Below, piece by piece: positions 18,525 to 35,490 of a DNA stretch of 48,233 nucleotides (positions within the stretch are counted from its first letter, which is position 1; each line of letters begins with the position of its first letter). Position numbers and translations under genes: made by a program. A model generated the notes under the pieces. The model saw only the letters and a list, made by a program, of their open reading frames with translations, was not told where the DNA came from and did no database searches. Source of the DNA: a bacterium (GTDB lineage Bacteria; Patescibacteriota; Minisyncoccia; Phycocordibacterales; UBA918); NCBI GenBank assembly GCA_043719295.1, contig JAYSUD010000012.1, positions 92,790 through 141,022 of the forward strand. The letters are read 5' to 3'.

Positions 18525-18848
18525 ATGGCATTTTCTTTTTCACATCTGATTATTTATGAGTCAGACCGAATGACCTGTGAGAGCGCTTTTAGGCTAGTTA
18601 ACGAAGACCTTCCACAGGCTACGAAGCGGGGTACAGCTTCTTGTGTTGGAAAAATTGAAAGCTTTGACATATGGCTCGGTTTCAAGAAAGGAATACCTTC
18701 GTGGAAATGTTCCTGTACAAAGACCTTGTATGCAGAATCGAGTAATCCTTGCGTTCATGCAATTGCCTTAGCTATTTCGTGGGACAGAAATCGAGGCGTC
18801 CCTGACCCTTCAGATGAAGACATTGAGTTTCTTACGAAGAAGCATTGA
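18525..18848 (+). CDS. SWIM zinc-finger protein
   Basis: WKCSCTKTLYAESSNPCVHAIAL is a CxC...CxH SWIM signature. Converges on the helicase gene and overlaps it by 17 nt. Confidence 0.7.
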   Translation: MAFSFSHLIIYESDRMTCESAFRLVNEDLPQATKRGTASCVGKIESFDIWLGFKKGIPSWKCSCTKTLYAESSNPCVHAIALAISWDRNRGVPDPSDEDIEFLTKKH

Positions 18849-20961
18849 GACCGAACTCTTTTTCATATAGTCGCTGCCTCTTTTTGTAGTGCCTTTCCAG
18901 AAATGCAATCTGTGAATCATGGATATCAACGATATATTTCACTCCATTGCCTCGCAACCTTCCGATATATTGCTTGAGTTTTCCTTCAAATGAAATTGGA
19001 AAAGCGAGAACCAGTACATCAAATCCTTTGACATCTAGACCCTCTCCGAAGAGAGGTCCCGTTGCAATGAGGACTTTAAAATTACCCGCCGTTATCTGGT
19101 CATATTTCAATTTCCGCTGTCTGGCAGAATCGTCACCAGATAAAGTTATAATTTCAGCCACCTCACGCAGATGCAGTGCCAGTATTTCTATATGTTCCCT
19201 TCGCTCCGTTAGCAATAATATCTTTCGGTTTTGTCTTAGGTGGTCAAGCACTGCGTCAATAATAACCCTATTCCGTGCTGTGTCGAATGATATTGTCTTC
19301 GCTAGAATTTCATAATGATCGTTTTTATATCGAAAGGGCAGTTCCAAAAGAGAGGGAATAATCATAATGTTAAACGTTCCTGATTCCGCTCCCTGCGATG
19401 ACTTCATTTCTGCCAGTACTGGTCCTATGCAAAGTTCAGCAATGAGCTGTTGGTCAAACTTTCGCTCGTGAGTGGCAGTAAGTCCGTAACAGTATCTACT
19501 GTTAAATGAACGAATTGTCTCACGATATGTTTTTGCAGGAATATGGTGGCATTCGTCGATGACCATAACCCCAAACACATTTCTGATTTCATCAAAATTC
19601 TTATATCGAGCAAGACTCTGTAGTGACGCAACCGTAATTTGTTTACCCAGTTTCTTTTTCGTCCCCGAAATGACTCCGATATGAGCTTTCGGGATTCCAA
19701 GAAATTGCTCAATTCGTTCAACCCACTGATGAAGAAGTTGATTGCGATGAACAAGAATAATTGAAGGTAATGTAAGTCGAGTAATAATTTCAAGAGCCAT
19801 TATCGTTTTACCGCTCCCCGGTGGAGCGACGAGAATACCATTTGGCTTTTTAAGCACTTGGGTGACTACAATTTCCTGCTCCGCTTTCAACTCAATCAAG
19901 TTTGAAAAAGAAACATCGTCAAACTCACGTTTTGTTTGTGTGAACGTATAAGAGATATTATTTTCATCTAGAAATTCAGCGAACTGTGACAAAAATCCTC
20001 GAGGCAGAATAACCTTGTCGCTTACTTCCTCAATGAGGTGGAAATATCTCTCGGTGCTGAAGGTCGATTTCCCTAAACGCTTTTTCATCCCATATTCTTT
20101 GTTAAAAATGTTCAAATTTTCCTTAATAAAGTTTATGACGGGTTTTGAGAGTTCATTTCTGTTTAGGATAATGTTCCCGCCAACAGAAATATGAATGCCC
20201 GACACAGGACTAGCCCCACCCTGTATCGTAGCGCCTAAACATATTTTTTCATATGCGCTATCAAGATCAGAAACTGAGTGTCTATGAACATTTCTTAAAA
20301 ACTTCCATTGATCTGGGTAAATATCGTCGGCTTTTGTATCGTAAAACACCGTGCATTTTTCCATTACTCTTTGACCTTGTAGCGGAGCACCAATCAGATT
20401 ACCAAACCCACCATCTGAAACGGTGTCCTGATTTGGAAATAAACGATCAAAACTATCTTCTTTCTGAAATTCTGAATGCGGTGATATTCTTGCTATTAAG
20501 GTAAGCATAATTTCCCGAGATTTCCAGCAAGGGTATGCCCCGGCAAAAAATACCCATACGTGTACACCATTACCTCCCCGTGAGATTTCTGTATACGCCA
20601 ACAGACCATTCTCGGAGCACGTATCTACCAGATTTCTTGCGTCATCTTTCCATGAAGTCTCATCAAAATCAGCGACTATGAAATAGGATGTGTTATCTGG
20701 AAGTATCGGATATATCCCAATTGTTTCTTTGCCTGTAAGATGTCCTTCTATCACTCCATGAGTAAATGGCATGAGTGTCTTGTTCTTAAAGTCCTTAATG
20801 GTACCTCCGTGAGCTCTGTGTGCATTAAATTCGTCCCAGTCGAAAGCATACGCAGGCGACCATCCGCTTTTTGTATCTTTTTCCCATCTCCGTGCATATA
20901 CGTCATCACGACCTCTGAAAAGCGATTTGTACAAACCAATCTGTTCTGGAGTCATGCTCAT
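18832..20961 (-). CDS. Archaeo-eukaryotic primase (prim-pol) domain fused to SF2 DEAD/DEAH-box helicase
   Basis: AEP motifs LFRGRDDVYARRW, VADFDETSW (DxD) and GGNGVHVWVFF (sxH). Helicase motifs VAPPGSGKT, VIDECHHIPA and TGPLFGEGLDV. The architecture resembles AEP-helicase proteins annotated in conflict/defence systems. Confidence 0.8.
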   Translation of the reverse strand: MSMTPEQIGLYKSLFRGRDDVYARRWEKDTKSGWSPAYAFDWDEFNAHRAHGGTIKDFKNKTLMPFTHGVIEGHLTGKETIGIYPILPDNTSYFIVADFDETSWKDDARNLVDTCSENGLLAYTEISRGGNGVHVWVFFAGAYPCWKSREIMLTLIARISPHSEFQKEDSFDRLFPNQDTVSDGGFGNLIGAPLQGQRVMEKCTVFYDTKADDIYPDQWKFLRNVHRHSVSDLDSAYEKICLGATIQGGASPVSGIHISVGGNIILNRNELSKPVINFIKENLNIFNKEYGMKKRLGKSTFSTERYFHLIEEVSDKVILPRGFLSQFAEFLDENNISYTFTQTKREFDDVSFSNLIELKAEQEIVVTQVLKKPNGILVAPPGSGKTIMALEIITRLTLPSIILVHRNQLLHQWVERIEQFLGIPKAHIGVISGTKKKLGKQITVASLQSLARYKNFDEIRNVFGVMVIDECHHIPAKTYRETIRSFNSRYCYGLTATHERKFDQQLIAELCIGPVLAEMKSSQGAESGTFNIMIIPSLLELPFRYKNDHYEILAKTISFDTARNRVIIDAVLDHLRQNRKILLLTERREHIEILALHLREVAEIITLSGDDSARQRKLKYDQITAGNFKVLIATGPLFGEGLDVKGFDVLVLAFPISFEGKLKQYIGRLRGNGVKYIVDIHDSQIAFLERHYKKRQRLYEKEFGLNASS

Positions 20962-20972
20962 AAACCACTCAA

Positions 20973-22025
20973 TTATATTCTCCTATATCGAGTCGTCCTA
21001 CCTTGTCCAATACGCTCTATCTTTTTGAGTCGAAGCAGTGTGTCTATTGCCTGAGATACAGTTGGACGGGCGACACCAGTTACTTTTGCAATCAGACCTG
21101 GCGTTGCTTCTTCCGTAGTCAACAGATACTGCCACACGAGCAACTGCTTCGGTGAGAGGAGCTTTTCAATACTTTCTTTTGATATGAGCGCAAGCGCTTC
21201 TTTTGCCTGAGTCAATGAAACATATAAAAAAAATTCAAGCCATGGAGATACATCTTCAGACTCTGTGCCGAATGTTTTCTGACTCTTACGAAGTACAACA
21301 TAATACTCTGCCTTGTTATCTTCAATCAATTTTTCGTGTGAAACGTACGGTACATAATCATATCCAAGCTGGAGCATGAGCAAATTTGTAAGTATGCGAC
21401 TCATTCTGCCATTTCCATCTTGGAAGGGGTGAATCTTAAGAAATTCGACAATAAAATTAGCAATTACTATGAGTGTATGGATTTTCTTCTGTGTAATTGC
21501 TTTTTGTGTCCACTCTATTAATTCCTGCATTTCTTTTCCTGTAAGCCATGCTGGCGTTGTGGCAAATACGACTGCAACTGACGCACCTGTATCGTCCAGT
21601 ATTTCTACTTGATTCTCAACTTTTTTATAGCTACCTCGGTGGAGGCTATCTTTGTCTACATACTTGAGAAGCTCTCGGTGAAGATGTTGGATACTACTTT
21701 CAGAAAAAGAAATTTTTGTATACGCAGTAAATACATTTTCAAGAAGTTCGTAGTACCCCTGCACCTCCTGTTTATCTCTATCTTTAAACTTTTGCATGGA
21801 GAGTCCACGCATCAGTTTTTCAACATCTTCATCAGTCAGTTTCGCTCCCTCAATACGAGTAGACGCACCCGTAGAGGTGACAAGGACTGATTTCTTCAGT
21901 CGTCCTAATATCTGTGGATTAAGTAATGCTCCTCCTACAAATCGACCCTTGAGTTCATCGATCTGACTCACAAGTACCCAAAGATTTTGTGGTATATTTT
22001 TAACTCGTTTATCGAAGCGATTCAT
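20973..22025 (-). CDS. Fic/DOC family protein with N-terminal inhibitory motif and C-terminal winged HTH
   Basis: Active site HPFQDGNGRMSR. STRIEG matches the (S/T)xxxE(G/N) auto-inhibition helix. C-terminal ...ATPGLIAKVTGVARPTVSQAIDTLLRLKKIER is wHTH-like. Confidence 0.85.
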   Translation of the reverse strand: MNRFDKRVKNIPQNLWVLVSQIDELKGRFVGGALLNPQILGRLKKSVLVTSTGASTRIEGAKLTDEDVEKLMRGLSMQKFKDRDKQEVQGYYELLENVFTAYTKISFSESSIQHLHRELLKYVDKDSLHRGSYKKVENQVEILDDTGASVAVVFATTPAWLTGKEMQELIEWTQKAITQKKIHTLIVIANFIVEFLKIHPFQDGNGRMSRILTNLLMLQLGYDYVPYVSHEKLIEDNKAEYYVVLRKSQKTFGTESEDVSPWLEFFLYVSLTQAKEALALISKESIEKLLSPKQLLVWQYLLTTEEATPGLIAKVTGVARPTVSQAIDTLLRLKKIERIGQGRTTRYRRI

Positions 22026-22111
22026 AATATTTAATCTACTATGGATGATATATGAGATTATATTAGATTATACACTTTATAGCAAGCATGTGTACTTATA
22101 CTGAACATATC

Positions 22112-22161
22112 GAAGAACCCCTCGCCCACAAACTCCTTGAATTTTTCGGCTTTTAAGCTAT
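22112..22161 (+). repeat. Direct repeat, right copy (attR-like)
   Basis: See 17952-18001. Confidence 0.9.
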
Positions 22162-22209
22162 GCTGTTGCCACTAAAGGTACATAAGGGGACTTTAGTAAT
22201 TTAATACTC

Positions 22210-22281
22210 GCTCTCATAGTTTAATGGATAGAATGTCAGTTTGCGGAATTGACGATCCAGGTTCGATCCCTGGTGAGAGCA
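22210..22281 (+). tRNA. tRNA-Arg (anticodon GCG by hand folding), no encoded CCA
   Basis: Acceptor GCTCTCA/TGAGAGC, D loop AATGGATA, anticodon stem TCAGT/ATTGA with loop TTGCGGA, T arm CCAGG-TTCGATC-CCTGG. The isotype rests on my choice of anticodon-stem register. Confidence 0.7.
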
Positions 22282-22287
22282 CAAAAA

Positions 22288-22318
22288 TAAAAAGTCCCTT
22301 CGTGGACTTTTTATTTTT
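22288..22318 (+). terminator. Rho-independent terminator after tRNA-Arg
   Basis: AAAGTCC cttcgt GGACTTT followed by ttatttttgg. Confidence 0.7.
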
Positions 22319-22604: not shown

Positions 22605-23096
22605 CTATTGCAATTCTACTAGCTCTCCATTTGTATCTGACATATGAATATACAATGGTTGTGAACATAAAATCTCAATAACTCCAGTTTCTTGGTTTTG
22701 AGCTGTGACTTGCAATACATGTTTCCCTGGTCGTGATGTTGCGACACCTCTTGGAAAATTAAAAGTTGCATAATATCTATTCATTTCTTTTGGAATGACT
22801 ACATCCAGTTTCATATCTTCCATCACTATGTTGCCTTCTGGATCAATAAAATTGATGGCACAATTGAGGCTTACTTCATATCTAGTATCAGTCATAAATG
22901 GTGATCTATCGAAGATTAAAACCAGATCAAGTGGGGCCTTAATCCAACGCAACGTAGTACCAATACTTTCACTCTCTTCTGGAGAAATAGTTACGCCAAG
23001 GGTCGAAATAATATTTATAAATGAAAGGAAGCCCGTCTCCTTTTCCACTTGAGTTTTTTGACAAATTAACCCACAACAAGATATTTTCTGATTCAT
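22605..23096 (-). CDS. Hypothetical protein (163 aa)
   Basis: ORF lying 3 nt downstream of the adenylating-enzyme gene. No motif recognised. Confidence 0.6.
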   Translation of the reverse strand: MNQKISCCGLICQKTQVEKETGFLSFINIISTLGVTISPEESESIGTTLRWIKAPLDLVLIFDRSPFMTDTRYEVSLNCAINFIDPEGNIVMEDMKLDVVIPKEMNRYYATFNFPRGVATSRPGKHVLQVTAQNQETGVIEILCSQPLYIHMSDTNGELVELQ

Positions 23097-23099
23097 ATT

Positions 23100-24404
23100 T
23101 TAACTAGTTACTGCAGTTTGATTAGACTCATCAATATATACTAGCGTTTTACCTCTTCCCATTCTCGGTATTGACTCAAGAAACACCATATGGATGTTAA
23201 TTGTATTGCCTAAAATTTTCTTCATACACGACAACAAATCCTCAGTCATAAAATCAAAATATAAATTATTTTTCACTATTCGAACCTCTAGTTCGTGTTC
23301 ACTCTTCTTTACTATCTGGTATTGCACAATAGCTTCAGCATGTTCTGCAAAAAGACTATTGAGATCAAAGTGGCTTAACATTTTTTCTCCGAACATTACA
23401 AAACGATTCCTGCCGTGTAGCGAAAATCTAATATATGGACCTCTTTTTTCGTGTAGAATTGCAAGGTCTCCAAGTTCATATCGAATAAACGGTTGGGTAT
23501 AGTTAAGTAAATCTGTCACAAGCACTCTTCCTGTCTGTCCTACCTGTACACTTTTATTTTCATCATCTACAATCTCAATTATAAACGTCTCTGCACACGA
23601 GACAAGTCCTTGGCTTCCTGGTTCTTCAGCTCCAATTGTTGCAAACTCAGCTGTACCATAGCGATTATAGACTTTGCCTCCTAGGACACGTTCAATATAC
23701 TGCACTTGACCATCAAGTAATGCCTCACCACTATTAATAATATATGGGATTTTAATTTTTCCAGTATATCCATACTGTTCAACATAGTGACAAAATTCTA
23801 GAGTTGAAGTTGCATAACATCCAAAAATATGAGGTTCCAATTTTATTACTTTTTCAACAATTTCTTTAGATTCTGAACGCAAATTCGCGTAGTCAATAAA
23901 TAAATGTCTGCCTTCCGCATCTTCAATCCTGGTCGGTTCAAGAATGTCGGGTCTGCGGATTTCAGCTATTCGCAGTTTGTTTTGAATCTCTGACACTGAA
24001 TGACCTGCTTTTATAATCGAGCGAAATATATGAAAATACATGTACGATAACTGCAAATCAGGAAATTCAGTATCATACGCAGAATTATAAAAACGAACAG
24101 GCTCGCCTGTTGTGCCTGAAGTACCACCTTTACTTCGTCCGTACATCCATTTTGGTAAATGGTGATTTACCATGTCAAACCCATCTTCTCTAAGATTTTG
24201 CCGAGTTACAATAGGGAGTTTTTCAAAAGAAGATAATTCAAGAGACTCACCTTCAAAGACTTTTTTATAGTAGGAAGTATTAGCTCGTGCATAGTGCAAA
24301 AGTTTTTGAAGCTTTCTTTTTTGCAAGAAAAACAAAAGGGTATCTGGAAAATAAATACTTCTTGTTATCCAAAAAAAATCTAATTCGTCTTTAAGAAAAA
24401 GCAT
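23100..24404 (-). CDS. PaaK/CapK/F390-synthetase-like adenylate-forming enzyme
   Basis: GGTSGTTGEPVRF (the TSGTTGxP AMP-binding loop of phenylacetate-CoA-ligase-like enzymes) and a C-terminal RMGRGK lysine motif. Confidence 0.75.
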   Translation of the reverse strand: MLFLKDELDFFWITRSIYFPDTLLFFLQKRKLQKLLHYARANTSYYKKVFEGESLELSSFEKLPIVTRQNLREDGFDMVNHHLPKWMYGRSKGGTSGTTGEPVRFYNSAYDTEFPDLQLSYMYFHIFRSIIKAGHSVSEIQNKLRIAEIRRPDILEPTRIEDAEGRHLFIDYANLRSESKEIVEKVIKLEPHIFGCYATSTLEFCHYVEQYGYTGKIKIPYIINSGEALLDGQVQYIERVLGGKVYNRYGTAEFATIGAEEPGSQGLVSCAETFIIEIVDDENKSVQVGQTGRVLVTDLLNYTQPFIRYELGDLAILHEKRGPYIRFSLHGRNRFVMFGEKMLSHFDLNSLFAEHAEAIVQYQIVKKSEHELEVRIVKNNLYFDFMTEDLLSCMKKILGNTINIHMVFLESIPRMGRGKTLVYIDESNQTAVTS

Positions 24405-24607: not shown

Positions 24608-24636
24608 TGACAAAGGGGGCGGTTTTCCGCCCCCAT
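24608..24636 (-). terminator. GC-rich rho-independent terminator
   Basis: GGGGGCGG tttt CCGCCCCC immediately after the stop of 24646-25011. Confidence 0.75.
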
Positions 24637-26301: not shown

Positions 26302-27984
26302 TTATTGTGCTTTATTGTGTACCACTACTCCGTTTACGAGATAGTTTGCAGGGCCTTGCTTCATATGTAGGTTGTATACATCAACATATTCTTGTTCATA
26401 TGAGTTTGTGCCATCTATAACAACTTCTGAACTAACAATACTTCCAAGACCATCGTGCAATAGTACAGAGTCACCAATAGCAAACAAACCAATTTCTTTG
26501 TATGACTTTGAAACTGGATCAAAGTATGGGTGATTACTTGTCACAAACGTTTCTACACTATGTTGCTGCCCATCAATAATAGAAACTTTTAGGAGTGGGT
26601 AATCTCCGAAATTAGCAGGATTATGAAGTTGCGAATGGACAATTAATTCACCAACAACCGATGTTACAAAGCTATTTGTATTTTGATCATAAGATACAAC
26701 GGTATCCCCTTCTTTAATACTTGCAATGGCAACCTCACCATTTAAAGTTGTAACTAATTGATCTGCAGTGAAGCATGAGTAACTACTTTGTGAATATGAC
26801 CTATAGCTACTTTGTGAATAAGTAGATCTATAGCTACTTTGGCTATAGTAACCACCTTGGCTATAGTAACCACCTTGAGAATAGTAACCACCTTGGCTAT
26901 AATACCCACCTTGAGAATAGTAACTACTTTGTGAATAGTACCTACTTTGACTATATCCTTTGCCAGCATAACTACTTTGAGTATAGTACCCACCTTGACC
27001 ATAGTAACTACTTTGGCTATACGATTTACCCCCATAACTACTTTGAGAGTATGTAGTTCTGTAACTACTTTGGCTGTAGTAACTACTTTGGCTGTAGTAA
27101 CTACTTTGGCTGTATGCTTTACCTCCATAGCTACTTTGCGAGTATGTTCTGTAGCTACTTTGGCTATATGTAGGGGTTGAAGGAACTCCATACGCATCCT
27201 TAACAGATTGTGGAAGATCTTGAACATTATTGAATGGATGTGTAGTACCATTAGAATCTGTATACGTTCCAGTACCTGAGGTATGAACAACAATATTTCC
27301 TCCATTATTACACTCATACACTACTATTCCAGATGGGAGCGTTAGACCAGATGAGGTATAACTACTTTGGGTATATCCAGGGGTATAACTACTTTGGGTA
27401 TATCCAGGGGCATAAGAACTTTGACTGTATCCTGGTGCGTAGCTTGATTGAGAGTAGGCTGGACCATAACTTGACTGAACGTATCCAGGTCCAGTGTAAG
27501 AACTTTGACTATATCCTGGGACATAACTACTTTGAGAGTATCCTGGTGCGTAACTACTCTGACTGTACCCTGGAGCGTAGCTTGATTGAGAGTAGGCTGG
27601 GCCACCGTAAGAACTCTGACTGTAAGCAGGTCCATAGCTTGATTGAGAATATGGCGCAGGAACGTCAGCATATACAGTCTTAATAAATACAACCTGACCT
27701 ATCATTGAACGTAAGTCGAAATTATTAATTTTGGAGTACACATGAATTCCTGCTAATGCAAAAACCAAAATTGTCGCAACAACAGGCAATGACTTATTCT
27801 TTAGAAAAAAACTACTTCTGGAGCTTTCCACATTAAACAATGGGGACAATATTTCAGCATTAGTTGTAATTTCTGAACTAATTACATCAAACGACTTCAA
27901 TTCATTTTCATTATTATAAATGAATGTAGTGTCGTGTTTTTTTACACTCGAACTGTTCGCACTTAAGATAGCGTCTTTTCCCAT
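26302..27984 (-). CDS. Membrane-anchored Tyr/Ser/Gln/Gly-repeat protein ending in a C-terminal Hint (bacterial intein-like) domain
   Basis: TM helix at about aa 66-84. About 11 copies of Y(S/T/V)QSSY plus xPG (aa 112-212), a 60-aa non-repeat insert, then about 20 more YSQSSY/YSQGGY units (aa 273-403). The Hint domain follows: Cys404 (CFTADQLV), block B TSNHP, and VYNLHM..GPANYLVNGVVVHN-KAQ-stop. Confidence 0.85.
   Translation of the reverse strand: MGKDAILSANSSSVKKHDTTFIYNNENELKSFDVISSEITTNAEILSPLFNVESSRSSFFLKNKSLPVVATILVFALAGIHVYSKINNFDLRSMIGQVVFIKTVYADVPAPYSQSSYGPAYSQSSYGGPAYSQSSYAPGYSQSSYAPGYSQSSYVPGYSQSSYTGPGYVQSSYGPAYSQSSYAPGYSQSSYAPGYTQSSYTPGYTQSSYTSSGLTLPSGIVVYECNNGGNIVVHTSGTGTYTDSNGTTHPFNNVQDLPQSVKDAYGVPSTPTYSQSSYRTYSQSSYGGKAYSQSSYYSQSSYYSQSSYRTTYSQSSYGGKSYSQSSYYGQGGYYTQSSYAGKGYSQSRYYSQSSYYSQGGYYSQGGYYSQGGYYSQGGYYSQSSYRSTYSQSSYRSYSQSSYSCFTADQLVTTLNGEVAIASIKEGDTVVSYDQNTNSFVTSVVGELIVHSQLHNPANFGDYPLLKVSIIDGQQHSVETFVTSNHPYFDPVSKSYKEIGLFAIGDSVLLHDGLGSIVSSEVVIDGTNSYEQEYVDVYNLHMKQGPANYLVNGVVVHNKAQ
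26776..27651 (-). repeat. In-frame degenerate tandem coding repeats (18-30 nt units) encoding YSQSSY-type units, split by a unique segment at 27169-27348
   Basis: Recurrent gtaactactttggctgtagtaactactttg... on the plus strand. It produces long shadow ORFs in several frames. Confidence 0.85.
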
Positions 27985-28280: not shown

Positions 28281-29462
28281 TCACTTAAAATATATCCCCT
28301 TCTTGTTCAACATTTCTTCAAAAGACGGACTGAAACTTACTACTTCTTCTAGCGCATTGAATATTAAAGGACTTTGTTCCCGAGCTTTGTCCTGATTGAA
28401 TTGAAATCTAAATATAGTCTGAGAAAGAGCGTCGTATGGCAAGTTTTGATTTAAATGCTCTAGAGCCAAATTTATATGACTTTCTACAATAGTTTCGTAT
28501 ACTTCCTTGTTTATTCGATGTAGGTAGAGTGCACTATAGAAATGAATGGAGCTTTCATAGTTGGCAAATACATTATTTTCTTTATAACTTTCAGATTGAG
28601 AAATTTGCATTGCTTCGGCAAAAACAGTTTCGAAGTCTTGCTCAGTTGGTTTTGGCACTTTGGTTACAATATCTCCAAGCACCTTGCCCTTCCAGTATAA
28701 ATGTGTGACAAGCGCACTAGATTTAAGAGATATCGGGGTATTTATAGGATCTTTTATTCTTTCATCGGCGCTGGCTATGTATGTCTCAATTTTATTCTGA
28801 ATTTGAACATTAGAAAGTTGTTCTACGTTTGGTCTATATTTGTTTTCATTCAGTGTATCAGCATATACATTTGCTAAAAACATACTCGTGAATGGAATTG
28901 GTTCAAGACTTTCGGCAAATAGTGCCAACTTTTTCATCAGCTCATGCCGAGCAATTAAGTCACCATTTTTTGCAAGTTCTAATGTCTCTAAATATTTTTT
29001 ATCAAACGATATTATTGCTTGTGTCTGAATATAAAAAGGGAAATCTCCAGCATAAAATGAGGCAGGGTCAGTGTACGCATATCTAATAAGCATTGCTATG
29101 GCTGATGACCTACCCCAAGCTGGCACACTCTCATCATCAGCTACACCTCGCAACATATTTATGGCTTCTAAAGATGCTTCAGTAGTGTTTTTTTTATGCA
29201 ATGCACTTATATATGAAAAAGTAAGTGACAGATATTCAAGAGATTTTTTATTATTCATATTGTTTATAAGACTCTTTGCATTTTGTAAATCAGTATCTGC
29301 AGCGCTTGTAAGCAACACACTAGCTAGTTCAGGCCCATTTTTTGACTCTCTATTTATTTGTATCTCATTATTGCCATCATTTCTGGGGTAGAAAAAAAAT
29401 ATACACAGTGTAATACCCAGTGTCAGAAAAAAAAGAAGTAGTGGTAGTATTTTAATTTTCAT
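28281..29462 (-). CDS. Membrane-anchored all-alpha protein, unknown function; translationally coupled to the upstream Hint-repeat gene
   Basis: N-terminal TM helix (ILPLLLFFLTLGITLCIFFF). TAATG stop/start overlap at 29460-29464. Confidence 0.7.
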   Translation of the reverse strand: MKIKILPLLLFFLTLGITLCIFFFYPRNDGNNEIQINRESKNGPELASVLLTSAADTDLQNAKSLINNMNNKKSLEYLSLTFSYISALHKKNTTEASLEAINMLRGVADDESVPAWGRSSAIAMLIRYAYTDPASFYAGDFPFYIQTQAIISFDKKYLETLELAKNGDLIARHELMKKLALFAESLEPIPFTSMFLANVYADTLNENKYRPNVEQLSNVQIQNKIETYIASADERIKDPINTPISLKSSALVTHLYWKGKVLGDIVTKVPKPTEQDFETVFAEAMQISQSESYKENNVFANYESSIHFYSALYLHRINKEVYETIVESHINLALEHLNQNLPYDALSQTIFRFQFNQDKAREQSPLIFNALEEVVSFSPSFEEMLNKKGIYFK

Positions 29463-30304
29463 TACATTCCAAATTTATTATGTACAAGGATCCCGTTAAC
29501 AAAATAGTTAGCAGGGCCACTAGACATGTGTAAATTATATACTGTTGCTATTACTGAGGATTCAGTCAATACATCTCTACTTATAATCTTAATAGGTCCA
29601 GATTGTGTAAAAAGGCTATCGCCTATATTAAACTCCCCAATCGCCTTGTATGCACCCGAGACTACGTCATAGTAAGGATGGTTACTTGTAACACGCGTTA
29701 TACTCCCATCAGAGCACGTTAGTTCTACTAGCGGCATATTCACAAAATCATGAGGGTTTGTTTGTTCATCATGAATAATAACTTCACCAACGGTAGATGT
29801 TACAAATTCTTCTGACTCTTCATCATATGACCGAACCTTAGCCCCTACACATACACGCTCAATAGAAACACCCCCATCTTCAGTCAGGACTACCTCCCCC
29901 GCAGTAAAGCAGGAACCTCCACAACTACCCCCGGAGCCCCCTGAACTTGCATAACTGCTTTGGCTGTAGTACCCACTTTGAGAATATGACCTGTAACTGC
30001 TTTGGCTGTAGTACCCACTTTGAGAATATGACCTGTAGCTGCTTTGAGAATATGAACCATAGCTACTTTGGCTGTAGTACCCACTTTGAGAATATGAACC
30101 ATAGCTACTTTGTAGATATGGGGTATCAGCATGTGCTACTTGAAAGTTTGAAATGTTCTTTATAAAGCCCAATATCTGAAGTTTTGGATATTGCTCTTTA
30201 TTAAAAAGATCTAAGCCAAAAAATTTACAAGTAAAAACTACGATCGTCAACAAAAGGAAGAGCGCTATTTTAATTGGATTTAAAAAAGTATTCTTATGCG
30301 ACAT
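29462..30304 (-). CDS. Membrane-anchored YSQSSY/YSQSGY-repeat protein with Gly/Ser/Cys tract and C-terminal Hint domain (short paralogue of 26302-27984)
   Basis: TM helix at aa 11-31, repeats at aa 63-119, SSGGSGGSCGGS, then Hint Cys132 (CFTAGEVV), TSNHP, and VYNLHMSSGPANYFVNGILVHN-KFGM-stop. Confidence 0.85.
   Translation of the reverse strand: MSHKNTFLNPIKIALFLLLTIVVFTCKFFGLDLFNKEQYPKLQILGFIKNISNFQVAHADTPYLQSSYGSYSQSGYYSQSSYGSYSQSSYRSYSQSGYYSQSSYRSYSQSGYYSQSSYASSGGSGGSCGGSCFTAGEVVLTEDGGVSIERVCVGAKVRSYDEESEEFVTSTVGEVIIHDEQTNPHDFVNMPLVELTCSDGSITRVTSNHPYYDVVSGAYKAIGEFNIGDSLFTQSGPIKIISRDVLTESSVIATVYNLHMSSGPANYFVNGILVHNKFGM
29948..30118 (-). repeat. In-frame tandem coding repeats (YSQSSY / YSQSGY units)
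   Basis: Same nucleotide motif family as 26776-27651. Confidence 0.8.
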
Positions 30305-30401
30305 AATATATCAATATATTCTACAGTAAGTAGAACCTTAGTAAAGGCTATTGTTAACATTTGCTAAACTATACCTGACACAAACTGTGTATACTTCTTT
30401 A

Positions 30402-31829
30402 ATGGATGCAGAAGAGAATTCATATGTATTTGGAAAAGTAGTCGATCTTTACACATACATTTCTAAATCAAATCTCGGGGAGATTACAAAAGCAGGTGTA
30501 CTTTTCATTGTTAACATCCTAAATACGTACCTTCTGTTGCGTACCCAATTTGTAATTCAATATACAGAGGACTTTCGAGATGGTATAGACGTTGATTTAA
30601 AAGAAAAAATCAGGTTTCTTAAAGAAAAAAGAATTATTGATCAACTCATAATTCATTCCCATATATTTTCTGATGAACCATTTCAATTTAGTGCCACGGC
30701 AGTACCTAGTGGATATGGACATGACTTTTTTGATCAGCAAAAAACAATAAGAAAATCTTTGAGTGAAGCTGTTGAGCGCTACCTATGGGAAAATACAACA
30801 GCTCCGTATAAAAATAGACAAATATTTTCTTCTTATAATGAATTAAAGTATAAAAAACTAGATATTTTTTCACTACAAGGATTTACACAAGATCAAAAAA
30901 AAAGCACCATAAAGCTCCAATTTACTTCTGAAACTATTTTTTCATGGTTGCCTGGATTTTCTCTGACTGGTAATAAAACACTCTATTGCCCAACAAGTTT
31001 AGTTAGCTTAAATTATTTTAGATCAAGTGACGAACCAATGCTTCGTTGGAACATTACAACAGGTCAGGCAACCAGACCAAGCCTTGCTGAAGCGAAACTT
31101 CAAGCAATTCTTGAAATTATTGAGCGAGATGCTTTTATGATAAGTTATCTTAATAAACTAACCCCAAAAAAAATATCAATCTCACATTATTCTGATCTAG
31201 ATAAAGATATCGCTAGTATTTACGATGACTGCATGCGATATAATCTCGAGCTTCATTTATTGGCTCTACCTACTGATTTTCCTGTACACTGTATAATTGC
31301 TGTCATAATTGACAGATCGGGACTAGGACCAGCTCTCACTGTCGGTGCTTCGTGTAGTTTCGATATAGAAAATTGTATAAAACATGCTACATCTGAAGCT
31401 CTCTCTGTACGTTTTTACCTCAAAGATAAATTCCAAAAAGAACATTGCGGAAAAAATTTTGACAGACTTGAGCGATTAATCTACTGGAGTAAACCTGAAA
31501 ATATTGATAAACTTAATTTTTTTCTGGAAGGTACTGATACGATACAAGTTCCATTACTTGAATCTAAATTCAATATAGAAGAAAAGCTATGCATACTTAT
31601 ATCTGCATTTAGATCAAAAAAATATGAACTATGTTGTATTGATATGTCAGATAAAGAGCTGAAAAATGCTGGTTTTGAAAGTGTTTCAATTATCTCGCCA
31701 GAAATGCAACCTTTGCACCTCAATGAAGAAATTCCATACTTTGGTGGAAAAAGACTTAAAGAAGTGCCACTTATGTTTGGATATGATGCCGCAAGTATAA
31801 TTAATACAATACCTCATCCATTCCCATAA
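30402..31829 (+). CDS. YcaO-domain cyclodehydratase-like protein with about 130-aa N-terminal extension
   Basis: LSEAVERYLW and EAKLQAILEIIERDAF are YcaO ATP/Mg-binding glutamate motifs. The C-terminal IPHPFP-stop is the Pro-rich PxPxP tail of azoline-forming YcaOs. Start is ATG 30402 or TTG 30351. Confidence 0.85.
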   Translation: MDAEENSYVFGKVVDLYTYISKSNLGEITKAGVLFIVNILNTYLLLRTQFVIQYTEDFRDGIDVDLKEKIRFLKEKRIIDQLIIHSHIFSDEPFQFSATAVPSGYGHDFFDQQKTIRKSLSEAVERYLWENTTAPYKNRQIFSSYNELKYKKLDIFSLQGFTQDQKKSTIKLQFTSETIFSWLPGFSLTGNKTLYCPTSLVSLNYFRSSDEPMLRWNITTGQATRPSLAEAKLQAILEIIERDAFMISYLNKLTPKKISISHYSDLDKDIASIYDDCMRYNLELHLLALPTDFPVHCIIAVIIDRSGLGPALTVGASCSFDIENCIKHATSEALSVRFYLKDKFQKEHCGKNFDRLERLIYWSKPENIDKLNFFLEGTDTIQVPLLESKFNIEEKLCILISAFRSKKYELCCIDMSDKELKNAGFESVSIISPEMQPLHLNEEIPYFGGKRLKEVPLMFGYDAASIINTIPHPFP

Positions 31830-31831: not shown

Positions 31832-32578
31832 ATGTACAAATATTTTGCAAAAACTTTTCATAAGAAAATATTCAACCAATATCTAGACAGATTGCCAATT
31901 TTAGTGGATTCAAAAGTATGGCCAAAGGAGTGGTCAACGATTGATTATAAAGAATATCCACGCATGAAAAAAATAGAGCTCAAGCGAGCATCTTTTATAT
32001 TTCCACCATTAGACTCAATTCTCAAAATGCGACATACGACCAGAGAATTTCTAACACTACCAATTTCACTAGATAAAATTTCTTCTCTCCTTGAATATAG
32101 TGTTGGGTTAAATGTTACTCGAAATAAGAATTCAAACAATGAACGCCGATATTATCCTTCCGGTGGAGCACTTTATCCTCTTGAGGTTTATGTATACGTT
32201 CAATACTCAAAGGAAATAAGCGCTGGTCTATATCATTACAATGTAAAAAATCACTTGCTGGAAAATTTATTACCAAGTTCAGCAATTACTACTCTAAAAG
32301 AGAGCATCTATCCATGGGCAACAGATGCCCCAGTGACATTTTTTATTTCAAGTATTTGGAATAGAAATTTTAAAAAATATGACGACTACGGGTATCCAAT
32401 CGTACTTCTAGAAGCTGGGCATATTGGGCAAAATATGCAGCTTGTAGGTGAGGCGTTAGGACTGCGCTACTGTACATATGTTGGATTTAATATGAAAAAA
32501 ATTAATAATCTATTTAACTTTGAAAAAGCTGATGAAGAATGTGTACTCTATGTAGCTTCTTTCGGAGAAAGCAAATGA
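31832..32578 (+). CDS. SagB-type (nitroreductase-fold, FMN) dehydrogenase
   Basis: RRYYPSGGALYPLEVYV and LEAGHIGQNMQL are typical of SagB/ThcOx azoline oxidases. Begins 2 nt after the YcaO stop. Confidence 0.8.
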   Translation: MYKYFAKTFHKKIFNQYLDRLPILVDSKVWPKEWSTIDYKEYPRMKKIELKRASFIFPPLDSILKMRHTTREFLTLPISLDKISSLLEYSVGLNVTRNKNSNNERRYYPSGGALYPLEVYVYVQYSKEISAGLYHYNVKNHLLENLLPSSAITTLKESIYPWATDAPVTFFISSIWNRNFKKYDDYGYPIVLLEAGHIGQNMQLVGEALGLRYCTYVGFNMKKINNLFNFEKADEECVLYVASFGESK

Positions 32579-33326: not shown

Positions 33327-33725
33327 TTATTCCACAACAGTAACAGTCCCAACCTTATTAGCTCTAATATGGTCATGAAATTTCCAAACGCCTACTTTAT
33401 CAAACTTAAATTTCCAAATGTCTCCAGAAGCAATTGGCTTTAATGGATCAAATTCTGGATAAATGCCATGGGTTGGATGTAGGTCAGATGCTGGCCAATG
33501 GAATTCCCCACTTTCATTTGTCCATAGAACTACGTCACCCTTTTTAACGGTTACTTCTTTTGGTTCATAGCCATTTTCAGTGCGCACAATAGTAACGGTC
33601 GTTTCCTCAAGTATTTCTGTAGCTCCCACAATGCTTTTAATTTCAGTATCTTTTGTTAAGAAAAGGTAGCTACCTCCAACTACCGCTAAGACGATAACTA
33701 CAACAATCAAATTTTTTGTATTCAT
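33327..33725 (-). CDS. Membrane-anchored stand-alone cupredoxin-like domain lacking the type-1 Cu cysteine
   Basis: ...YEPKEVTVKKGDVVLWTNESGEFHWPASDLHPTHGIYPEFDP...WKFKFDKVGVWKFHDHIRANKVGTVTVVE. The strand pattern is cupredoxin-like but has FHDH where CxxH...M is expected. Confidence 0.7.
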   Translation of the reverse strand: MNTKNLIVVVIVLAVVGGSYLFLTKDTEIKSIVGATEILEETTVTIVRTENGYEPKEVTVKKGDVVLWTNESGEFHWPASDLHPTHGIYPEFDPLKPIASGDIWKFKFDKVGVWKFHDHIRANKVGTVTVVE

Positions 33726-33726
33726 A

Positions 33727-34245
33727 TTATTTTTTAACTTTTTTAGGTACTAAGAATCCAATACACAGCCCAATACACAAACTTCCAAAACTAAATAATG
33801 CATATAGTGGAATCGGATTAACTTCTTTTTCAACATCAAGAGGCGCAATTATTTCGAGTGGAAATTCTGATTTTATCACTGTTTCGCCGTCTTTTTGAAA
33901 GCGAGTTGCAATGGTATACACCCCCTCTTCTGGAAACACAAACGTGAAGCCAGTTGCACCAAACACCGGTTTATCAACTGCACCTCCAAAAAAGAGTTTT
34001 TTATCTTTTGTGATGGTGACCCATGCATCAGTAAATACCTCACCTTCAACTTTAGACACATCCTCAGGGTACAATGCAAAATCAAATCGAGTTGATTCTA
34101 ACGCTGCAATAAATTCATCGTGTCCAATATCAATTTTATATCCCTCTTTTACTTCTTCAAACGAGACTCCAGTACCGTGAGCATACACAGAAATTGCACC
34201 AGTTACAAAGATTACTCCAAAAATTAATACTGCCAAATACCTCAT
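33727..34245 (-). CDS. Secreted beta-rich protein with predicted N-terminal His after signal cleavage and C-terminal TM anchor
   Basis: Signal peptide ...GAISVYA followed by HGTGVSFEE. C-terminal LYALFSFGSLCIGLCIGFLV-PKKVKK. Confidence 0.65.
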   Translation of the reverse strand: MRYLAVLIFGVIFVTGAISVYAHGTGVSFEEVKEGYKIDIGHDEFIAALESTRFDFALYPEDVSKVEGEVFTDAWVTITKDKKLFFGGAVDKPVFGATGFTFVFPEEGVYTIATRFQKDGETVIKSEFPLEIIAPLDVEKEVNPIPLYALFSFGSLCIGLCIGFLVPKKVKK

Positions 34246-34270
34246 ATTTTAAAAGTATACCATGTACGTT

Positions 34271-35488
34271 TTATTCTCCATTACATTCTTGTTTAAACTT
34301 TGCAGGAAGTAACGAGCAGAGTTTTTCAAACGGTTCTGAACCAGGATGAAAATTAAACGAGGCTACATTTGCAAGAAAGCTATAACACTCGTCTTGTGCG
34401 GATCCTGTATTTGCCCGAGCACACATTGCAATTCCCTCCTCTACAAGATTTTGATCTTCTTCAGGATATGCATTTGCACCTCGGGAGAAACAGTTACCTT
34501 TATAGGTTTCAGGTAGCCCATTGCAGGTAGTTGCCATCTTCTCTGGATTTTCTAAATTGTGACGTCCATTAATTGTAAACGCTGAAACATAACACAAGTC
34601 TCTACTTTGTGAGGCTGAGAGTACTGAACAGTAAGAAGTAATACCTTCACTTGTGTACACATCAGCACCAAAAAATGGCCATGCTTCTCTCCAACAAGCA
34701 CCATACTGTGCATCATTTTGTGAACTTTTTGTACAGAACTCTTCAAGATTCTCCCGTGAGGGTTTTAGGTGTAACATATCAACGAGTGCATAGTCTTCGG
34801 GTTCAAGTGGTTGAAAGAGTTGCATGTACACCCCTTCTGTACAAAGCTGACGATAATCTCTCCCATCTTCTTTTTTACCAATTACTTCACAAGCCTGTAC
34901 TGATTCGGCTACTTCTGCCAGCGTCATGTGTATGAGCACATGACCAATACCGTGATAACAGATTGCCTTCGTTAAGTCAGTTGGGTCAAAACCCTCACGC
35001 GTTTCACAGGCTATCGATAAATCAGTTAACGCAGAATCAAATTCTTCTTTTGATAAGTCTTCATCGTTAAAACGGGTAACGATCGCTCCGTGTGCGAAAC
35101 CGTTTGAGCAAAGACCATCAGTCGGACCTTTTGCTATCACATCAAGCCACTTATTTGGGTCTAAAGAGACTTCATATCTTCCAAGTTCGTGTGCGAGCAC
35201 ATGGCAATACAAATACTTTGGATCTTCTCTTCTGATTTCACGGACGACATTAAAAATTTCTTCAGTTGGCAACTCTCGTACTAATTTGGGAACCTCTGTC
35301 TCATAACAAGTTGGTTTATACTCACTATCCTTACAAGCTTCAATCATCAAACTAGCAAACTCTTTGATACTTTTCTGTGGAGAAGATTTTGTTGTTTGTA
35401 CATAGACATATGTGCCCACAGTTAAAATCAAAAATACAGCAGCACTTAGAATCAGAATTGTATTTTTTTTCTTCATACGTAATTTCAT
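34271..35488 (-). CDS. Membrane-anchored Cys/His-rich domain protein (paralogue family, no cupredoxin domain)
   Basis: Motifs YCHVLAHELG, LCSNGFAHG and ICYHGIGHV, followed by recurrent xC(Y/F)xxG units. Confidence 0.7.
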   Translation of the reverse strand: MKLRMKKKNTILILSAAVFLILTVGTYVYVQTTKSSPQKSIKEFASLMIEACKDSEYKPTCYETEVPKLVRELPTEEIFNVVREIRREDPKYLYCHVLAHELGRYEVSLDPNKWLDVIAKGPTDGLCSNGFAHGAIVTRFNDEDLSKEEFDSALTDLSIACETREGFDPTDLTKAICYHGIGHVLIHMTLAEVAESVQACEVIGKKEDGRDYRQLCTEGVYMQLFQPLEPEDYALVDMLHLKPSRENLEEFCTKSSQNDAQYGACWREAWPFFGADVYTSEGITSYCSVLSASQSRDLCYVSAFTINGRHNLENPEKMATTCNGLPETYKGNCFSRGANAYPEEDQNLVEEGIAMCARANTGSAQDECYSFLANVASFNFHPGSEPFEKLCSLLPAKFKQECNGE

Positions 35489-35490
35489 TA

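What the first reader, a model, noticed from the sequence alone, without database searches (positions are those of the whole stretch)
26305..26775. Terminal Hint domains with only 3-4 residues after the HN motif: Hedgehog-like rather than intein- or toxin-releasing architecture
Both Hint domains (26305-26775 and 29465-29911) keep Cys1, the block-B TxxH (TSNHP) and the terminal VHN. The residue after Asn is Lys, not Cys/Ser/Thr, and the protein stops 3-4 residues later (KAQ, KFGM). Splicing is therefore impossible, and there is no C-terminal cargo as in polymorphic-toxin HINT proteins. The only sizeable product is the N-terminal repeat polymer carrying a C-terminal thioester. That is the logic Hedgehog uses to attach cholesterol, so the repeat region may be released or ligated to an envelope, lipid or host acceptor.
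Basis: partly seen in the sequence, partly recalled or inferred. Interest (0 to 1): 0.75.

Follow-up and report, generated by a model that had tools for sequence, protein, structure and literature searches.

The report
Self-cleaving tail on azole-cluster repeat proteins
Two membrane-targeted Tyr/Ser-rich repeat proteins that end in a self-cleaving intein-like (BIL/Hint) domain sit in a conserved gene cluster of tiny uncultured (CPR) bacteria beside YcaO and SagB, the enzymes that turn Ser/Cys into oxazole/thiazole rings. They therefore look like protein-sized precursors of a modified surface polymer whose tail domain cuts itself off, a combination I found no description of in the papers searched.

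Summary
ORF A (26302..27984, minus strand, 560 aa) and ORF B (29462..30304, minus strand, 280 aa) each end in a complete Hint domain with Cys1, TSNH and VHN. After the Asn come only KAQ or KFGM.

By sequence and predicted fold the domain is an A-type bacterial intein-like (BIL) domain, not a Hedgehog Hog domain. The best matches are the Tetrahymena BUBL BIL2 domain and the C. thermocellum BIL; Hedgehog ranks 20th. In 168 related domains Cys1 is invariant, HN is present in 161, and Lys follows Asn at +1 or +2 in 125. A short tail is the rule among close relatives.

B is divergent from a SagD-family YcaO and a SagB dehydrogenase. All 7 independent loci that carry this kind of protein and have enough flank also carry YcaO and/or SagB. 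The proteins share a leader that ends at an invariant Ala-Asp junction and have hypervariable Ser/Cys/Gly cores. Related clusters have the same leader and core without any Hint.

Best reading: these are RiPP-like substrates of an azole-forming system, and the BIL domain is an optional self-removing or ligating follower. The Hedgehog-like thioester logic remains possible but is untested.

The parts
26302..27984 (-). ORF A, 560 aa: leader + repeat core + BIL/Hint domain + KAQ tail
   Evidence: homologs with the same architecture are P0131, P0133, P0134 and the L036 gene at 7712..8587
27667..27984 (-). A leader, residues 1-106: long N-terminal region, hydrophobic segment (residues 65-83), linker, then the VYA-D junction
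   Evidence: the Ala-Asp junction is invariant in 10 of 10 aligned precursors
26776..27666 (-). A core, residues 107-403: two blocks of YSQSSY-type repeats (19 exact YSQSSY; 28% Ser, 21% Tyr) around a short non-repeat module
26314..26775 (-). A-type BIL/Hint domain of A (Cys404 to Asn557)
26305..26313 (-). three-residue tail KAQ after the terminal Asn of A
29462..30304 (-). ORF B, 280 aa: leader + repeat core + BIL/Hint domain + KFGM tail
   Evidence: orthologs at L036 2016..3008 and L037 4863..5753
30128..30304 (-). B leader, residues 1-59: basic N-terminus, hydrophobic segment (residues 13-31), linker, then the AHA-D junction
29912..30127 (-). B core, residues 60-131: YSQS[SG]Y repeats, then SSGGSGGSCGGS (40% Ser, 22% Tyr)
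29477..29911 (-). A-type BIL/Hint domain of B (Cys132 to Asn276)
29465..29476 (-). four-residue tail KFGM after the terminal Asn of B
30351..31829 (+). YcaO cyclodehydratase, SagD family, with the C-terminal PHPFP motif; divergent from B
   Evidence: Pfam YcaO 1.3e-45; TIGR03604 6e-60 at 203 bits, just under the 219-bit cutoff; the C-terminal motif is conserved in 26 homologs
31832..32578 (+). SagB-family FMN dehydrogenase (azoline to azole)
   Evidence: TIGR03605 1.4e-37, above its cutoff
28281..29462 (-). 393-aa protein with an N-terminal hydrophobic segment and no family match; directly downstream of B
   Evidence: no family hit; homologs in the same position in L036 and L037 at 26-33% identity; weaker similarity to L040
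25075..26292 (-). 405-aa protein with an N-terminal hydrophobic segment and a beta-propeller (PD40/TolB-like); directly downstream of A
   Evidence: homologs follow the A-type precursor in L036, L037 and L044 at 34-39% identity
24646..25011 (-). 121-aa ORF between the propeller gene and the terminator-like hairpin at 24615..24634; its N-terminus looks like a signal sequence by eye (no predictor was run)
   Evidence: a 120-aa gene occupies the same position in L044, but homology was not tested
23100..24404 (-). PaaK/F390-synthetase-like adenylate-forming ligase
   Evidence: NCBIfam hits, all far below their cutoffs; a homolog lies inside the YcaO cluster of L040 at 8e-17
22605..23096 (-). 163-aa protein of unknown function
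   Evidence: homologs lie directly after SagB in L035, L036 and L037; one homolog has a weak DUF6941 match

Best explanation
ORFs A and B are precursor (substrate) proteins of a YcaO/SagB azole-forming system found in CPR (Patescibacteria) bacteria.

Each protein has three parts:
1. An N-terminal leader: a basic N-terminus, one hydrophobic segment, a linker of about 20-30 residues, and a junction that fits A-x-A|D.
2. A hypervariable core rich in Ser, Tyr, Gln and Gly, with Cys next to the Hint domain.
3. A C-terminal A-type BIL (Hint) domain.

Inferred sequence of events:
- YcaO (ATP-dependent cyclodehydration) and SagB (FMN-dependent oxidation) convert some core Ser/Cys residues into oxazol(in)es and thiazol(in)es in the cytoplasm.
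- The hydrophobic leader takes the protein to or across the membrane. Several cluster partners with N-terminal hydrophobic segments (the 393-aa protein, the beta-propeller protein) would then meet it there.
- The leader is removed at the Ala-Asp junction.
- The BIL domain performs an N-S acyl shift at the core-Cys1 bond. The resulting thioester is resolved by water or by an amine. Candidate amines are the conserved Lys just after Asn, the new alpha-amine left by Asn cyclisation, or an external amine.
- The 17-kDa domain is thereby removed and the core ends in a defined, possibly ligated, C-terminus.

Shown here: the domain identities, the catalytic residues, the gene association and the shared leader. 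Inferred: every chemical step, the topology and the order of events.
For: BIL identity and intact catalytic residues. Across 168 related domains, Cys1 is present in 168, TxxH in 163 and HN in 161.

Cluster link. YcaO and SagB are divergent from B. The three closest YcaO homologs (L035, L036, L037; 42-47% identity) have the same set of genes: precursor, homolog of the 393-aa protein, homolog of the propeller protein, and homolog of the 163-aa protein. Hint proteins chosen only by Hint similarity also lie near YcaO/SagB: L001, L041, L043 and L044. That makes 7 of 7 loci with sufficient flank, and they differ in gene order. None of about 25 loci that encode large Cys-rich Hint-terminal proteins has YcaO.

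RiPP-like logic. The leader is conserved, with an invariant Ala-Asp junction in 10 of 10 precursors. The cores are hypervariable (YSQSSY repeats in some, G/S/D/C-rich in others). More distant YcaO clusters have short precursors with the same leader and core but no Hint (L038 93 aa, L040 116 aa), or a different C-terminal domain (L039), or a Cys-rich tail (L037 155 aa).

Enzyme type. YcaO homologs keep the C-terminal PHPFP (PxPxP) end, and the SagB match is above its cutoff.
Against: - There is no biochemical evidence for any step.
- No E1-like/Ocin-ThiF partner or RRE was found. The YcaO N-terminal 140 aa gives no fold match.
- TIGR03604 scores slightly below its cutoff.
- A leader with a hydrophobic segment predicts export. 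Modification by a cytoplasmic ATP-dependent enzyme would therefore have to come before translocation.
- The same BIL subfamily ends many secreted proteins that have no YcaO nearby. The BIL function is therefore generic and not tied to azole chemistry.
- Ser-only YSQSSY repeats are an unusual core for azole formation.
Confidence: 0.55

Rival explanations
1. Hedgehog-like transfer. The BIL thioester is resolved by a specific acceptor, such as a membrane lipid, a peptidoglycan amine or a Lys of another protein or host-surface molecule. The repeat polymer becomes covalently anchored or cross-linked through its C-terminus. This is compatible with the YcaO link, as a special case of the resolving step.
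For: - The domain is terminal and follows signal- or membrane-targeted N-terminal regions in dozens of CPR and DPANN proteins.
- The closest structural relative, BIL2, ligates its N-terminal flank to Lys side chains without other enzymes.
- A has three Lys in GGK[AS]YSQ or AGKGYSQ repeats that could act as acceptors.
Against: - There is no sterol- or adduct-recognition extension after the Hint fold.
- His-Asn and a short tail are conserved, which a pure Hog-type mechanism does not need.
- Orthologous precursors work without any Hint, so anchoring through it cannot be essential to the pathway.
- No acceptor has been identified.
Confidence: 0.2
2. A-type BIL 'splicing' onto its own tail. Asn cyclisation frees KAQ or KFGM. 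Its alpha-amine, or the Lys epsilon-amine, attacks the thioester, so the mature core ends in a short Lys-containing tag and the domain leaves without a trace.
For: - HN is kept in 161 of 168 domains, and Lys is at +1 in 92 and at +1 or +2 in 125 of those 161.
- This mechanism is documented for A-type BILs and for BIL2.
- Tandem arrays with K-G-G-G-(G)-C linkers between Hint domains fit repeated excision.
Against: - In the A-type BILs studied, cleavage products dominate over ligation.
- Beyond the Lys the tails are short and variable, so no obvious function is gained.
- The Lys could simply be part of the fold or of the Asn-cyclisation site.
Confidence: 0.15
3. The YcaO/SagB pair is unrelated to A and B. 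The neighbours reflect shared ancestry of gene order, and A and B are ordinary surface repeat proteins whose BIL domain self-cleaves by hydrolysis.
For: - No recognition domain was found on YcaO.
- The BIL subfamily occurs mostly without YcaO.
- Window, L035, L036 and L037 may be related genomes, because further flanking genes are also syntenic.
Against: - The association holds at 30-50% YcaO identity and with rearranged gene order (L001, L041, L043), and in two prospective look-ups.
- In L038 and L040 the only candidate substrate next to YcaO is a short peptide with the same leader.
Confidence: 0.1
4. Degenerate polymorphic-toxin or intein remnant: a PT-HINT module that lost its toxin, with no current function.
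For: The best Pfam match is PT-HINT, only marginally above its cutoff for A.
Against: - Catalytic residues are intact and nearly invariant across 168 domains.
- The short tail is the dominant architecture among the closest relatives.
- Two paralogs are kept per locus in several genomes.
- No toxin or immunity genes lie downstream; the genes there are conserved cluster partners.
Confidence: 0.02

Closest known systems
A-type bacterial intein-like (BIL) domains, e.g. C. thermocellum BIL (PDB 2LWY)
   Same: Hint fold of about 140-155 aa; Cys1; block B TxxH; C-terminal His-Asn; no +1 Cys/Ser/Thr; no endonuclease; found in variable secreted proteins. This is the best sequence match among solved structures (6.6e-7) and rank 5 by fold.
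   Different: Here the domain sits at the very C-terminus with only 3-4 residues after Asn, so there is essentially no C-flank to ligate. A Lys follows Asn in most relatives. The protein lies in a YcaO/SagB cluster.
BIL2 of the Tetrahymena thermophila BUBL (BIL-ubiquitin-like) locus (PDB 6Y75/6TMM)
   Same: Top structural match (1.5e-10, TM about 0.74). It uses its thioester to join the N-terminal flank to a Lys epsilon-amine without ATP or other enzymes (PMC8616854).
   Different: BIL2 is eukaryotic, is flanked by ubiquitin-like domains on both sides and shares 22% identity. Here the N-flank is a low-complexity repeat and the C-flank is 3-4 residues long.
Hedgehog/Hog C-terminal autoprocessing domain
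   Same: A secreted N-terminal part followed by a C-terminal Hint domain. The Cys thioester could be resolved by a non-protein nucleophile, and the only sizeable product is the N-terminal part.
   Different: The window domains have no sterol-recognition region and keep the terminal His-Asn that, to my knowledge, Hog domains lack. Hedgehog 1AT0 is only rank 20 by fold, and Pfam Hint PF01079 scores below its cutoff.
Linear azol(in)e-containing peptide (TOMM/LAP) clusters such as microcin B17 and streptolysin S
   Same: A SagD-family YcaO with a PxPxP end plus a SagB dehydrogenase, next to a gene with a conserved leader and a hypervariable Ser/Cys/Gly-rich core.
   Different: No E1-like/RRE partner was found. 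The leader contains a hydrophobic membrane-type segment. The cores can be hundreds of residues of tandem repeats. A folded self-cleaving domain follows the core.
Polymorphic-toxin PT-HINT modules
   Same: Best Pfam family match (PF07591).
   Different: There is no toxin domain after HN and no immunity gene; the tail is 3-4 residues.
C-terminal Hint-like domains of secreted bacterial proteins noted by Burglin 2008 (PMC2362128)
   Same: The Hint-like domain lies at the C-terminus of proteins with signal peptides.
   Different: Those domains are described as conserving mainly motifs A and B and as divergent from BILs. The domains here are clear A-type BILs with His-Asn.

Membership tests
A-type BIL domain | Hint (Hedgehog/intein) fold | tested here: met
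   AlphaFold2 pLDDT 92.6; Foldseek gives 51 matches at E<=1e-3, and all 50 listed are BIL, intein or Hedgehog domains
A-type BIL domain | N-terminal Cys/Ser nucleophile and block B TxxH | tested here: met
   Cys404/Cys132 and TSNH; aligned to the equivalent positions of 2LWY; Cys1 in 168/168 and TxxH in 163/168 relatives
A-type BIL domain | C-terminal His-Asn, as in inteins | tested here: met
   VVHN and LVHN; present in 161/168 relatives
A-type BIL domain | no nucleophilic residue at +1; not inserted in a conserved host protein; no homing endonuclease | tested here: met
   +1 is Lys; the domain is about 145-155 aa; the flanks are hypervariable
A-type BIL domain | autocatalytic N- and C-terminal cleavage or ligation | not testable with these tools
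   needs expression of the wild-type protein and of the Cys1Ala and Asn-to-Ala mutants
Hedgehog/Hog domain | sterol/adduct-recognition region C-terminal to the Hint module | tested here: not met
   the protein ends 3-4 residues after the Hint fold
Hedgehog/Hog domain | closer to Hog domains than to inteins or BILs | tested here: not met
   PF01079 scores 23.0 and 19.7 bits against a cutoff of 29.7; 1AT0 is rank 20 by fold, behind BILs and many inteins
Hedgehog/Hog domain | transfer of the N-terminal part to a non-protein nucleophile | not testable with these tools
   needs mass spectrometry of the processed product
Intein | +1 Cys/Ser/Thr and insertion in a conserved host protein, so that two exteins are spliced | tested here: not met
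   Lys at +1 and a 3-4 residue C-flank
Polymorphic-toxin PT-HINT protein | toxin domain C-terminal to the Hint, with an immunity gene downstream | tested here: not met
   no domain follows HN; the downstream genes are the conserved 393-aa and propeller proteins
TOMM/LAP azole RiPP cluster | YcaO cyclodehydratase of the azoline-forming type | tested here: inconclusive
   PF02624 1.3e-45; TIGR03604 at 203 bits, just under the 219-bit cutoff; C-terminal PHPFP conserved
TOMM/LAP azole RiPP cluster | SagB-type FMN dehydrogenase adjacent to YcaO | tested here: met
   TIGR03605 at 128.8 bits against a cutoff of 78.4; the gene starts 3 bases after the YcaO stop
TOMM/LAP azole RiPP cluster | E1-like (C protein/Ocin-ThiF) partner or RRE for leader binding | tested here: not met
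   no such gene in the window cluster; the model of the YcaO N-terminal 140 aa has no significant fold match
TOMM/LAP azole RiPP cluster | adjacent precursor with a conserved leader and a variable Cys/Ser/Thr-rich core | tested here: met
   10 aligned precursors share the leader and the invariant Ala-Asp junction, while the cores differ. Seven loci with a Hint-bearing precursor, plus L038, L039 and L040 with Hint-less ones, all carry YcaO and/or SagB.
TOMM/LAP azole RiPP cluster | azol(in)e rings present in the mature product | not testable with these tools
   needs co-expression and mass spectrometry

The most novel reading that the evidence does not exclude
CPR bacteria make a protein-sized, azole-decorated Tyr/Ser-rich polymer. 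They use a terminal BIL domain as a built-in, enzyme-free ligase. The thioester at the core's C-terminus would be captured by an amine on the cell envelope, on a neighbouring polymer chain (Lys in the GGKxYSQ repeats) or on the host cell. That would give a covalently anchored or cross-linked surface material: a prokaryotic counterpart of Hedgehog lipidation or BUBL conjugation, coupled to RiPP chemistry. The same module at the end of many CPR and DPANN surface proteins would then be a general sortase-independent anchoring device.
Probability: 0.2. Interest if true: 0.9.

Novelty: new variant of a known kind. Interest (0 to 1): 0.72.

Why it matters
- BIL domains have been known for two decades without a clear natural role. 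Here an A-type BIL is tied to a defined pathway with a predicted substrate, which makes its function directly testable.
- It would extend RiPP logic in three ways: a leader with a membrane-type hydrophobic segment, cores made of long tandem repeats, and a folded self-cleaving follower domain that could set or activate the C-terminus without a protease.
- CPR and DPANN organisms live attached to host cells and have very few characterised surface or secondary-metabolite systems. A conserved cluster that makes a modified Tyr/Ser-rich surface polymer is a candidate for attachment or for metal handling.
- The terminal 'VHNK' BIL module is widespread: 3630 cluster representatives at E<=1e-3. It could be a natural tool for enzyme-free C-terminal ligation.

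Tried and rejected
1. RRE or E1-like domain in the YcaO N-terminus. The AlphaFold2 model of residues 1-140 reached only pLDDT 75.8, and Foldseek found nothing below E = 0.86. There is no support for this.
2. By eye, the 376-548 aa TM+TPR proteins next to the precursors in L001, L006, L038 and L039 looked like C39-type leader peptidases. A profile search of solved structures found only TPR matches. I dropped the idea. The window's 393-aa protein is not detectably related to them, and its own profile hits nothing.
3. Hedgehog membership was rejected (see the membership test).
4. Toxin cargo: none is present in the window or in close relatives.
5. P0005 and P0006 seemed to have a Cys-rich 'core' after HN. 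This comes from reading a code-25 genome with code 11. All 12 in-frame stops in L003 are TGA, and with TGA read as Gly the Hint there is internal to a large Cys-rich protein.
6. Literature searches for YcaO with Hint domain, Hint with Candidate Phyla Radiation, and YSQSSY found nothing relevant. Papers that hold both YcaO and Patescibacteria mention YcaO only once each; one of them counts YcaO-type RiPP clusters in CPR genomes with antiSMASH.
7. The promoter/terminator scan was not enriched over shuffles. Only the hairpin at 24615..24634 is notable.
8. The third homologous-protein search was not used. The window's taxonomy rests on YcaO relatives named Patescibacteria or Parcubacteria at 50% identity or less.
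Full report
THE OBSERVATION. The window carries two minus-strand ORFs: A (26302..27984, 560 aa) and B (29462..30304, 280 aa). Each ends in a Hint domain. In A, Cys1 is residue 404, block B reads TSNH, His-Asn are residues 556-557 and the protein ends KAQ. In B, Cys1 is residue 132, block B is again TSNH, His-Asn are 275-276 and the protein ends KFGM. Pfam finds PT-HINT at 3.4e-6 and 5.6e-9, just over the gathering score, while the Hog-type Hint family stays below its cutoff.

WHAT KIND OF HINT DOMAIN. A profile of the domain and its relatives matches the solved C. thermocellum bacterial intein-like (BIL) domain 2LWY at 6.6e-7 over its whole length. Cys1 (Ala in the deposited chain), T..H and VHN fall at equivalent positions. 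The Tetrahymena BUBL BIL2 domain comes next. An AlphaFold2 model of the A domain is confident (pLDDT 92.6). Foldseek ranks BIL2 first (1.5e-10), 2LWY fifth, then many inteins; the Hedgehog autoprocessing domain 1AT0 comes twentieth. A-type BILs are defined by a Cys/Ser at position 1, His-Asn at the end and no +1 nucleophile. They cleave at both ends and can ligate their flanks by aminolysis (PMC4031507). BIL2 joins its N-terminal flank to a Lys epsilon-amine (PMC8616854). The domain is therefore an A-type BIL. It works on the same thioester principle as Hedgehog but is not a Hog domain: it has no sterol-recognition extension and it retains His-Asn.

HOW GENERAL IS THE TERMINAL POSITION. An exhaustive profile search of 1.84 billion cluster representatives found 3630 proteins at E<=1e-3 and 55 at E<=1e-30. 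Among the 55, 39 have a single complete domain; 23 of these have 5 or fewer residues after the match and 32 have 20 or fewer. In 168 complete domains from the best 150 proteins plus five sequences taken from the window and related loci, Cys1 is present in 168, TxxH in 163 and HN in 161. The +1 residue is Lys in 92 and Cys/Ser/Thr in only 8. Lys lies at +1 or +2 in 125 of the 161 domains with HN.

Named genomes that carry relatives are Peribacteria, Moraniibacteriota and Gracilibacteria (CPR bacteria), and Nanoarchaeales and another archaeon. In all of them an N-terminal signal or hydrophobic segment precedes a variable region (Cys-rich repeats, Gly-rich low-complexity sequence or other repeats), followed by the Hint domain and a short tail. 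Tandem Hint arrays joined by K-G-G-G-(G)-C linkers are also common.

Forty-six bases upstream of B, on the other strand, lies a YcaO (PF02624 1.3e-45; TIGR03604 SagD family 6e-60). It is followed by a SagB-family dehydrogenase (TIGR03605 1.4e-37). YcaO homologs keep the C-terminal PHPFP end. From established knowledge of the YcaO family, this Pro-rich end is typical of azoline-forming enzymes.

The closest YcaO homologs come from Patescibacteria and Parcubacteria metagenome bins. I fetched the loci of the three closest (42-47% identity). All three repeat the window's arrangement:
- a leader-YSQSSY-repeat protein lies divergent from YcaO; in L036 and L037 it ends in a Hint domain, and in L035 it is cut by the contig end;
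- a homolog of the window's 393-aa protein follows it in L036 and L037;
- L036 and L037 also have a second repeat protein followed by a homolog of the 405-aa beta-propeller protein;
- a homolog of the 163-aa protein lies after SagB in all three.

Hint proteins picked only by Hint similarity give the same result:
- L001 has YcaO and nitroreductase divergent from the Hint gene.
- L041 has nitroreductase and YcaO about 2 kb downstream, in the opposite order.

As a prospective test I looked up two more:
- L043, on a 1.08-Mb contig, has nitroreductase and YcaO 3 kb away.
- L044 has the propeller homolog and a SagB homolog (42% identity) at the contig end.

So 7 of 7 loci with enough flank show the link, at 30-50% YcaO identity and with different gene orders. 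By contrast, none of about 25 loci with large Cys-rich Hint-terminal proteins has YcaO nearby. As an inference, a gene present about once per ~1-Mb genome has roughly a 2% chance of lying within 10 kb of any given gene. Seven out of seven is therefore far beyond chance.

PRECURSOR LOGIC. Ten precursors aligned from these loci share the same layout: a basic N-terminus, one hydrophobic segment, a linker, and an invariant Ala-Asp junction that fits A-x-A|D (VYA-D, AHA-D, AQA-D, ASA-D, ARA-D, VNA-D). What follows is hypervariable: YSQSSY-type repeats in one group, G/S/D/C-rich sequence in the other.

In more distant YcaO clusters the adjacent gene has the same leader and core but ends differently:
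- with a stop codon and no Hint (L038, 93 aa; L040, 116 aa);
- with an unrelated C-terminal domain (L039);
- with a Cys-rich tail (L037, 155 aa).

A conserved leader with a variable Ser/Cys-rich core next to YcaO/SagB is the signature of azole-type RiPP precursors. The Hint domain is thus an optional follower module. A PaaK-like adenylating enzyme is shared between the window cluster and L040 (8e-17).

MOST LIKELY MECHANISM. The steps below are inferred unless marked as shown.
- YcaO and SagB install azol(in)es on core Ser/Cys residues.
- The hydrophobic leader directs the protein to or across the membrane, where partners with N-terminal hydrophobic segments reside.
- The leader is removed at Ala-Asp.
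- The BIL domain shifts the core-Cys1 peptide bond to a thioester. The residues needed for this are shown to be present.
- The thioester is resolved by water or by an amine, removing the 17-kDa domain.

The conserved His-Asn and Lys speak for classic A-type BIL chemistry. The generic use of the module at the ends of surface proteins keeps the anchoring idea alive.

WEAK POINTS.
- No E1-like or RRE partner was found, and the YcaO N-terminal domain has no recognisable fold.
- An exported substrate of a cytoplasmic enzyme requires modification before translocation.
- YSQSSY cores are nearly Cys-free.
- Nothing has been tested biochemically.

NOVELTY. BIL domains, C-terminal Hint-like domains in secreted bacterial proteins (PMC2362128) and YcaO/SagB clusters are each known. 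I found no paper that links a Hint/BIL domain to a YcaO cluster or to a RiPP precursor. Among the papers found, CPR YcaO genes are mentioned only as an antiSMASH count. I therefore rate this a new variant of known kinds, with high interest.

Noticed in passing
window 33327..36987 and 39241..42308 (minus strand): Four proteins with weak cupredoxin-like N-terminal domains (132, 498, 481 and 494 aa) flank the cluster. L037 has genes of matching sizes in the same order after SagB, two of them with weak cupredoxin hits. In L043 a multicopper oxidase sits next to the YcaO cluster. This hints at a copper link (metal-binding azole/Cys peptides, or Tyr cross-linking).
   Followed up: partly
window 1..22300: The left half is a defence/mobile island that ends at tRNA-Arg (22210..22282). 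It holds type I R-M genes (2573..9173), a serine recombinase (9462..10784), a DNA methylase (12107..13432), a DUF6119 protein (14695..16488), a TOTE-type AEP primase-helicase (18832..20961) and a Fic protein (20973..22025).
   Followed up: partly
L003, L004, L009, L010, L016: These relatives come from genomes that read TGA as a sense codon (code 25, Gracilibacteria-type). All 12 in-frame stops of the L003 gene are TGA. Standard gene calls therefore truncate the Hint proteins (P0005, P0006) and create false 'tails'.
   Followed up: yes
family-wide (P0127-P0273); window A residue 558, B residue 277: Lys is strongly conserved right after the terminal Asn (VHNK): at +1 in 92 and at +1 or +2 in 125 of 161 domains. 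It could be a nucleophile, as in BIL2, or part of the Asn-cyclisation site. This is unexplained.
   Followed up: partly
P0178, P0181, P0187, P0206, P0222 and others: Some proteins are made of 3-6 tandem BIL domains joined only by K-G-G-G-(G) linkers, so almost nothing lies between one domain's Asn and the next domain's Cys1. What such arrays release or ligate is unclear.
   Followed up: no
P0127, P0132, P0137, P0149, P0152, P0155; locus L042: A sister group has an N-terminal HxsD-family domain (PF27806, on record for P0127), a hydrophobic segment, an 'ASH' motif, a G/S/D/C-rich stretch and one or two BIL domains. No YcaO lies within the 6-kb contig L042.
   Followed up: partly
L037 2548..3015 (minus strand): This is a paralog of the A-type precursor with the same leader (AQA-D) and YSQSSY repeats. 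A Cys-rich 45-residue C-terminus replaces the Hint domain, and the propeller gene still follows. The Hint is therefore dispensable in that position.
   Followed up: partly
window A residues ~215-275 (about 27160..27340): A short non-repeat module lies between the two repeat blocks (…GIVVYECNNGGNIVVHTSGTGTYTDSNGTTHPFNNVQDLPQSVKDAYG…). It recurs in P0133 and, more loosely, in P0131, P0134 and the second precursor of L036. Its function is unknown.
   Followed up: no
P0157, P0176: YSQSSY-like repeats also occur after or between Hint domains (e.g. …LVHN-YGQSGYYSQSSYKYSQSSY…). The repeat and the BIL module are therefore combined in both orders.
   Followed up: no
window 24615..24634: A perfect 8-bp G+C hairpin (GGGGGCGG-TTTT-CCGCCCCC) reads as a terminator on both strands. 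It lies between the 121-aa gene and the PaaK-like gene and probably splits the minus-strand genes into two transcription units.
   Followed up: no
L001, L038, L039, L040, L041, L043: In the G/S/D/C-core clusters YcaO/SagB are accompanied by a PQQ/ACSF4-type beta-propeller. It is fused to a different N-terminal enzyme domain in each lineage where one was detected: phosphoribosyltransferase in L001 and L038, formyltransferase in L041, and AMMECR1 on record for the L039 protein. It may be a conserved but uncharacterised partner of these YcaOs.
   Followed up: no
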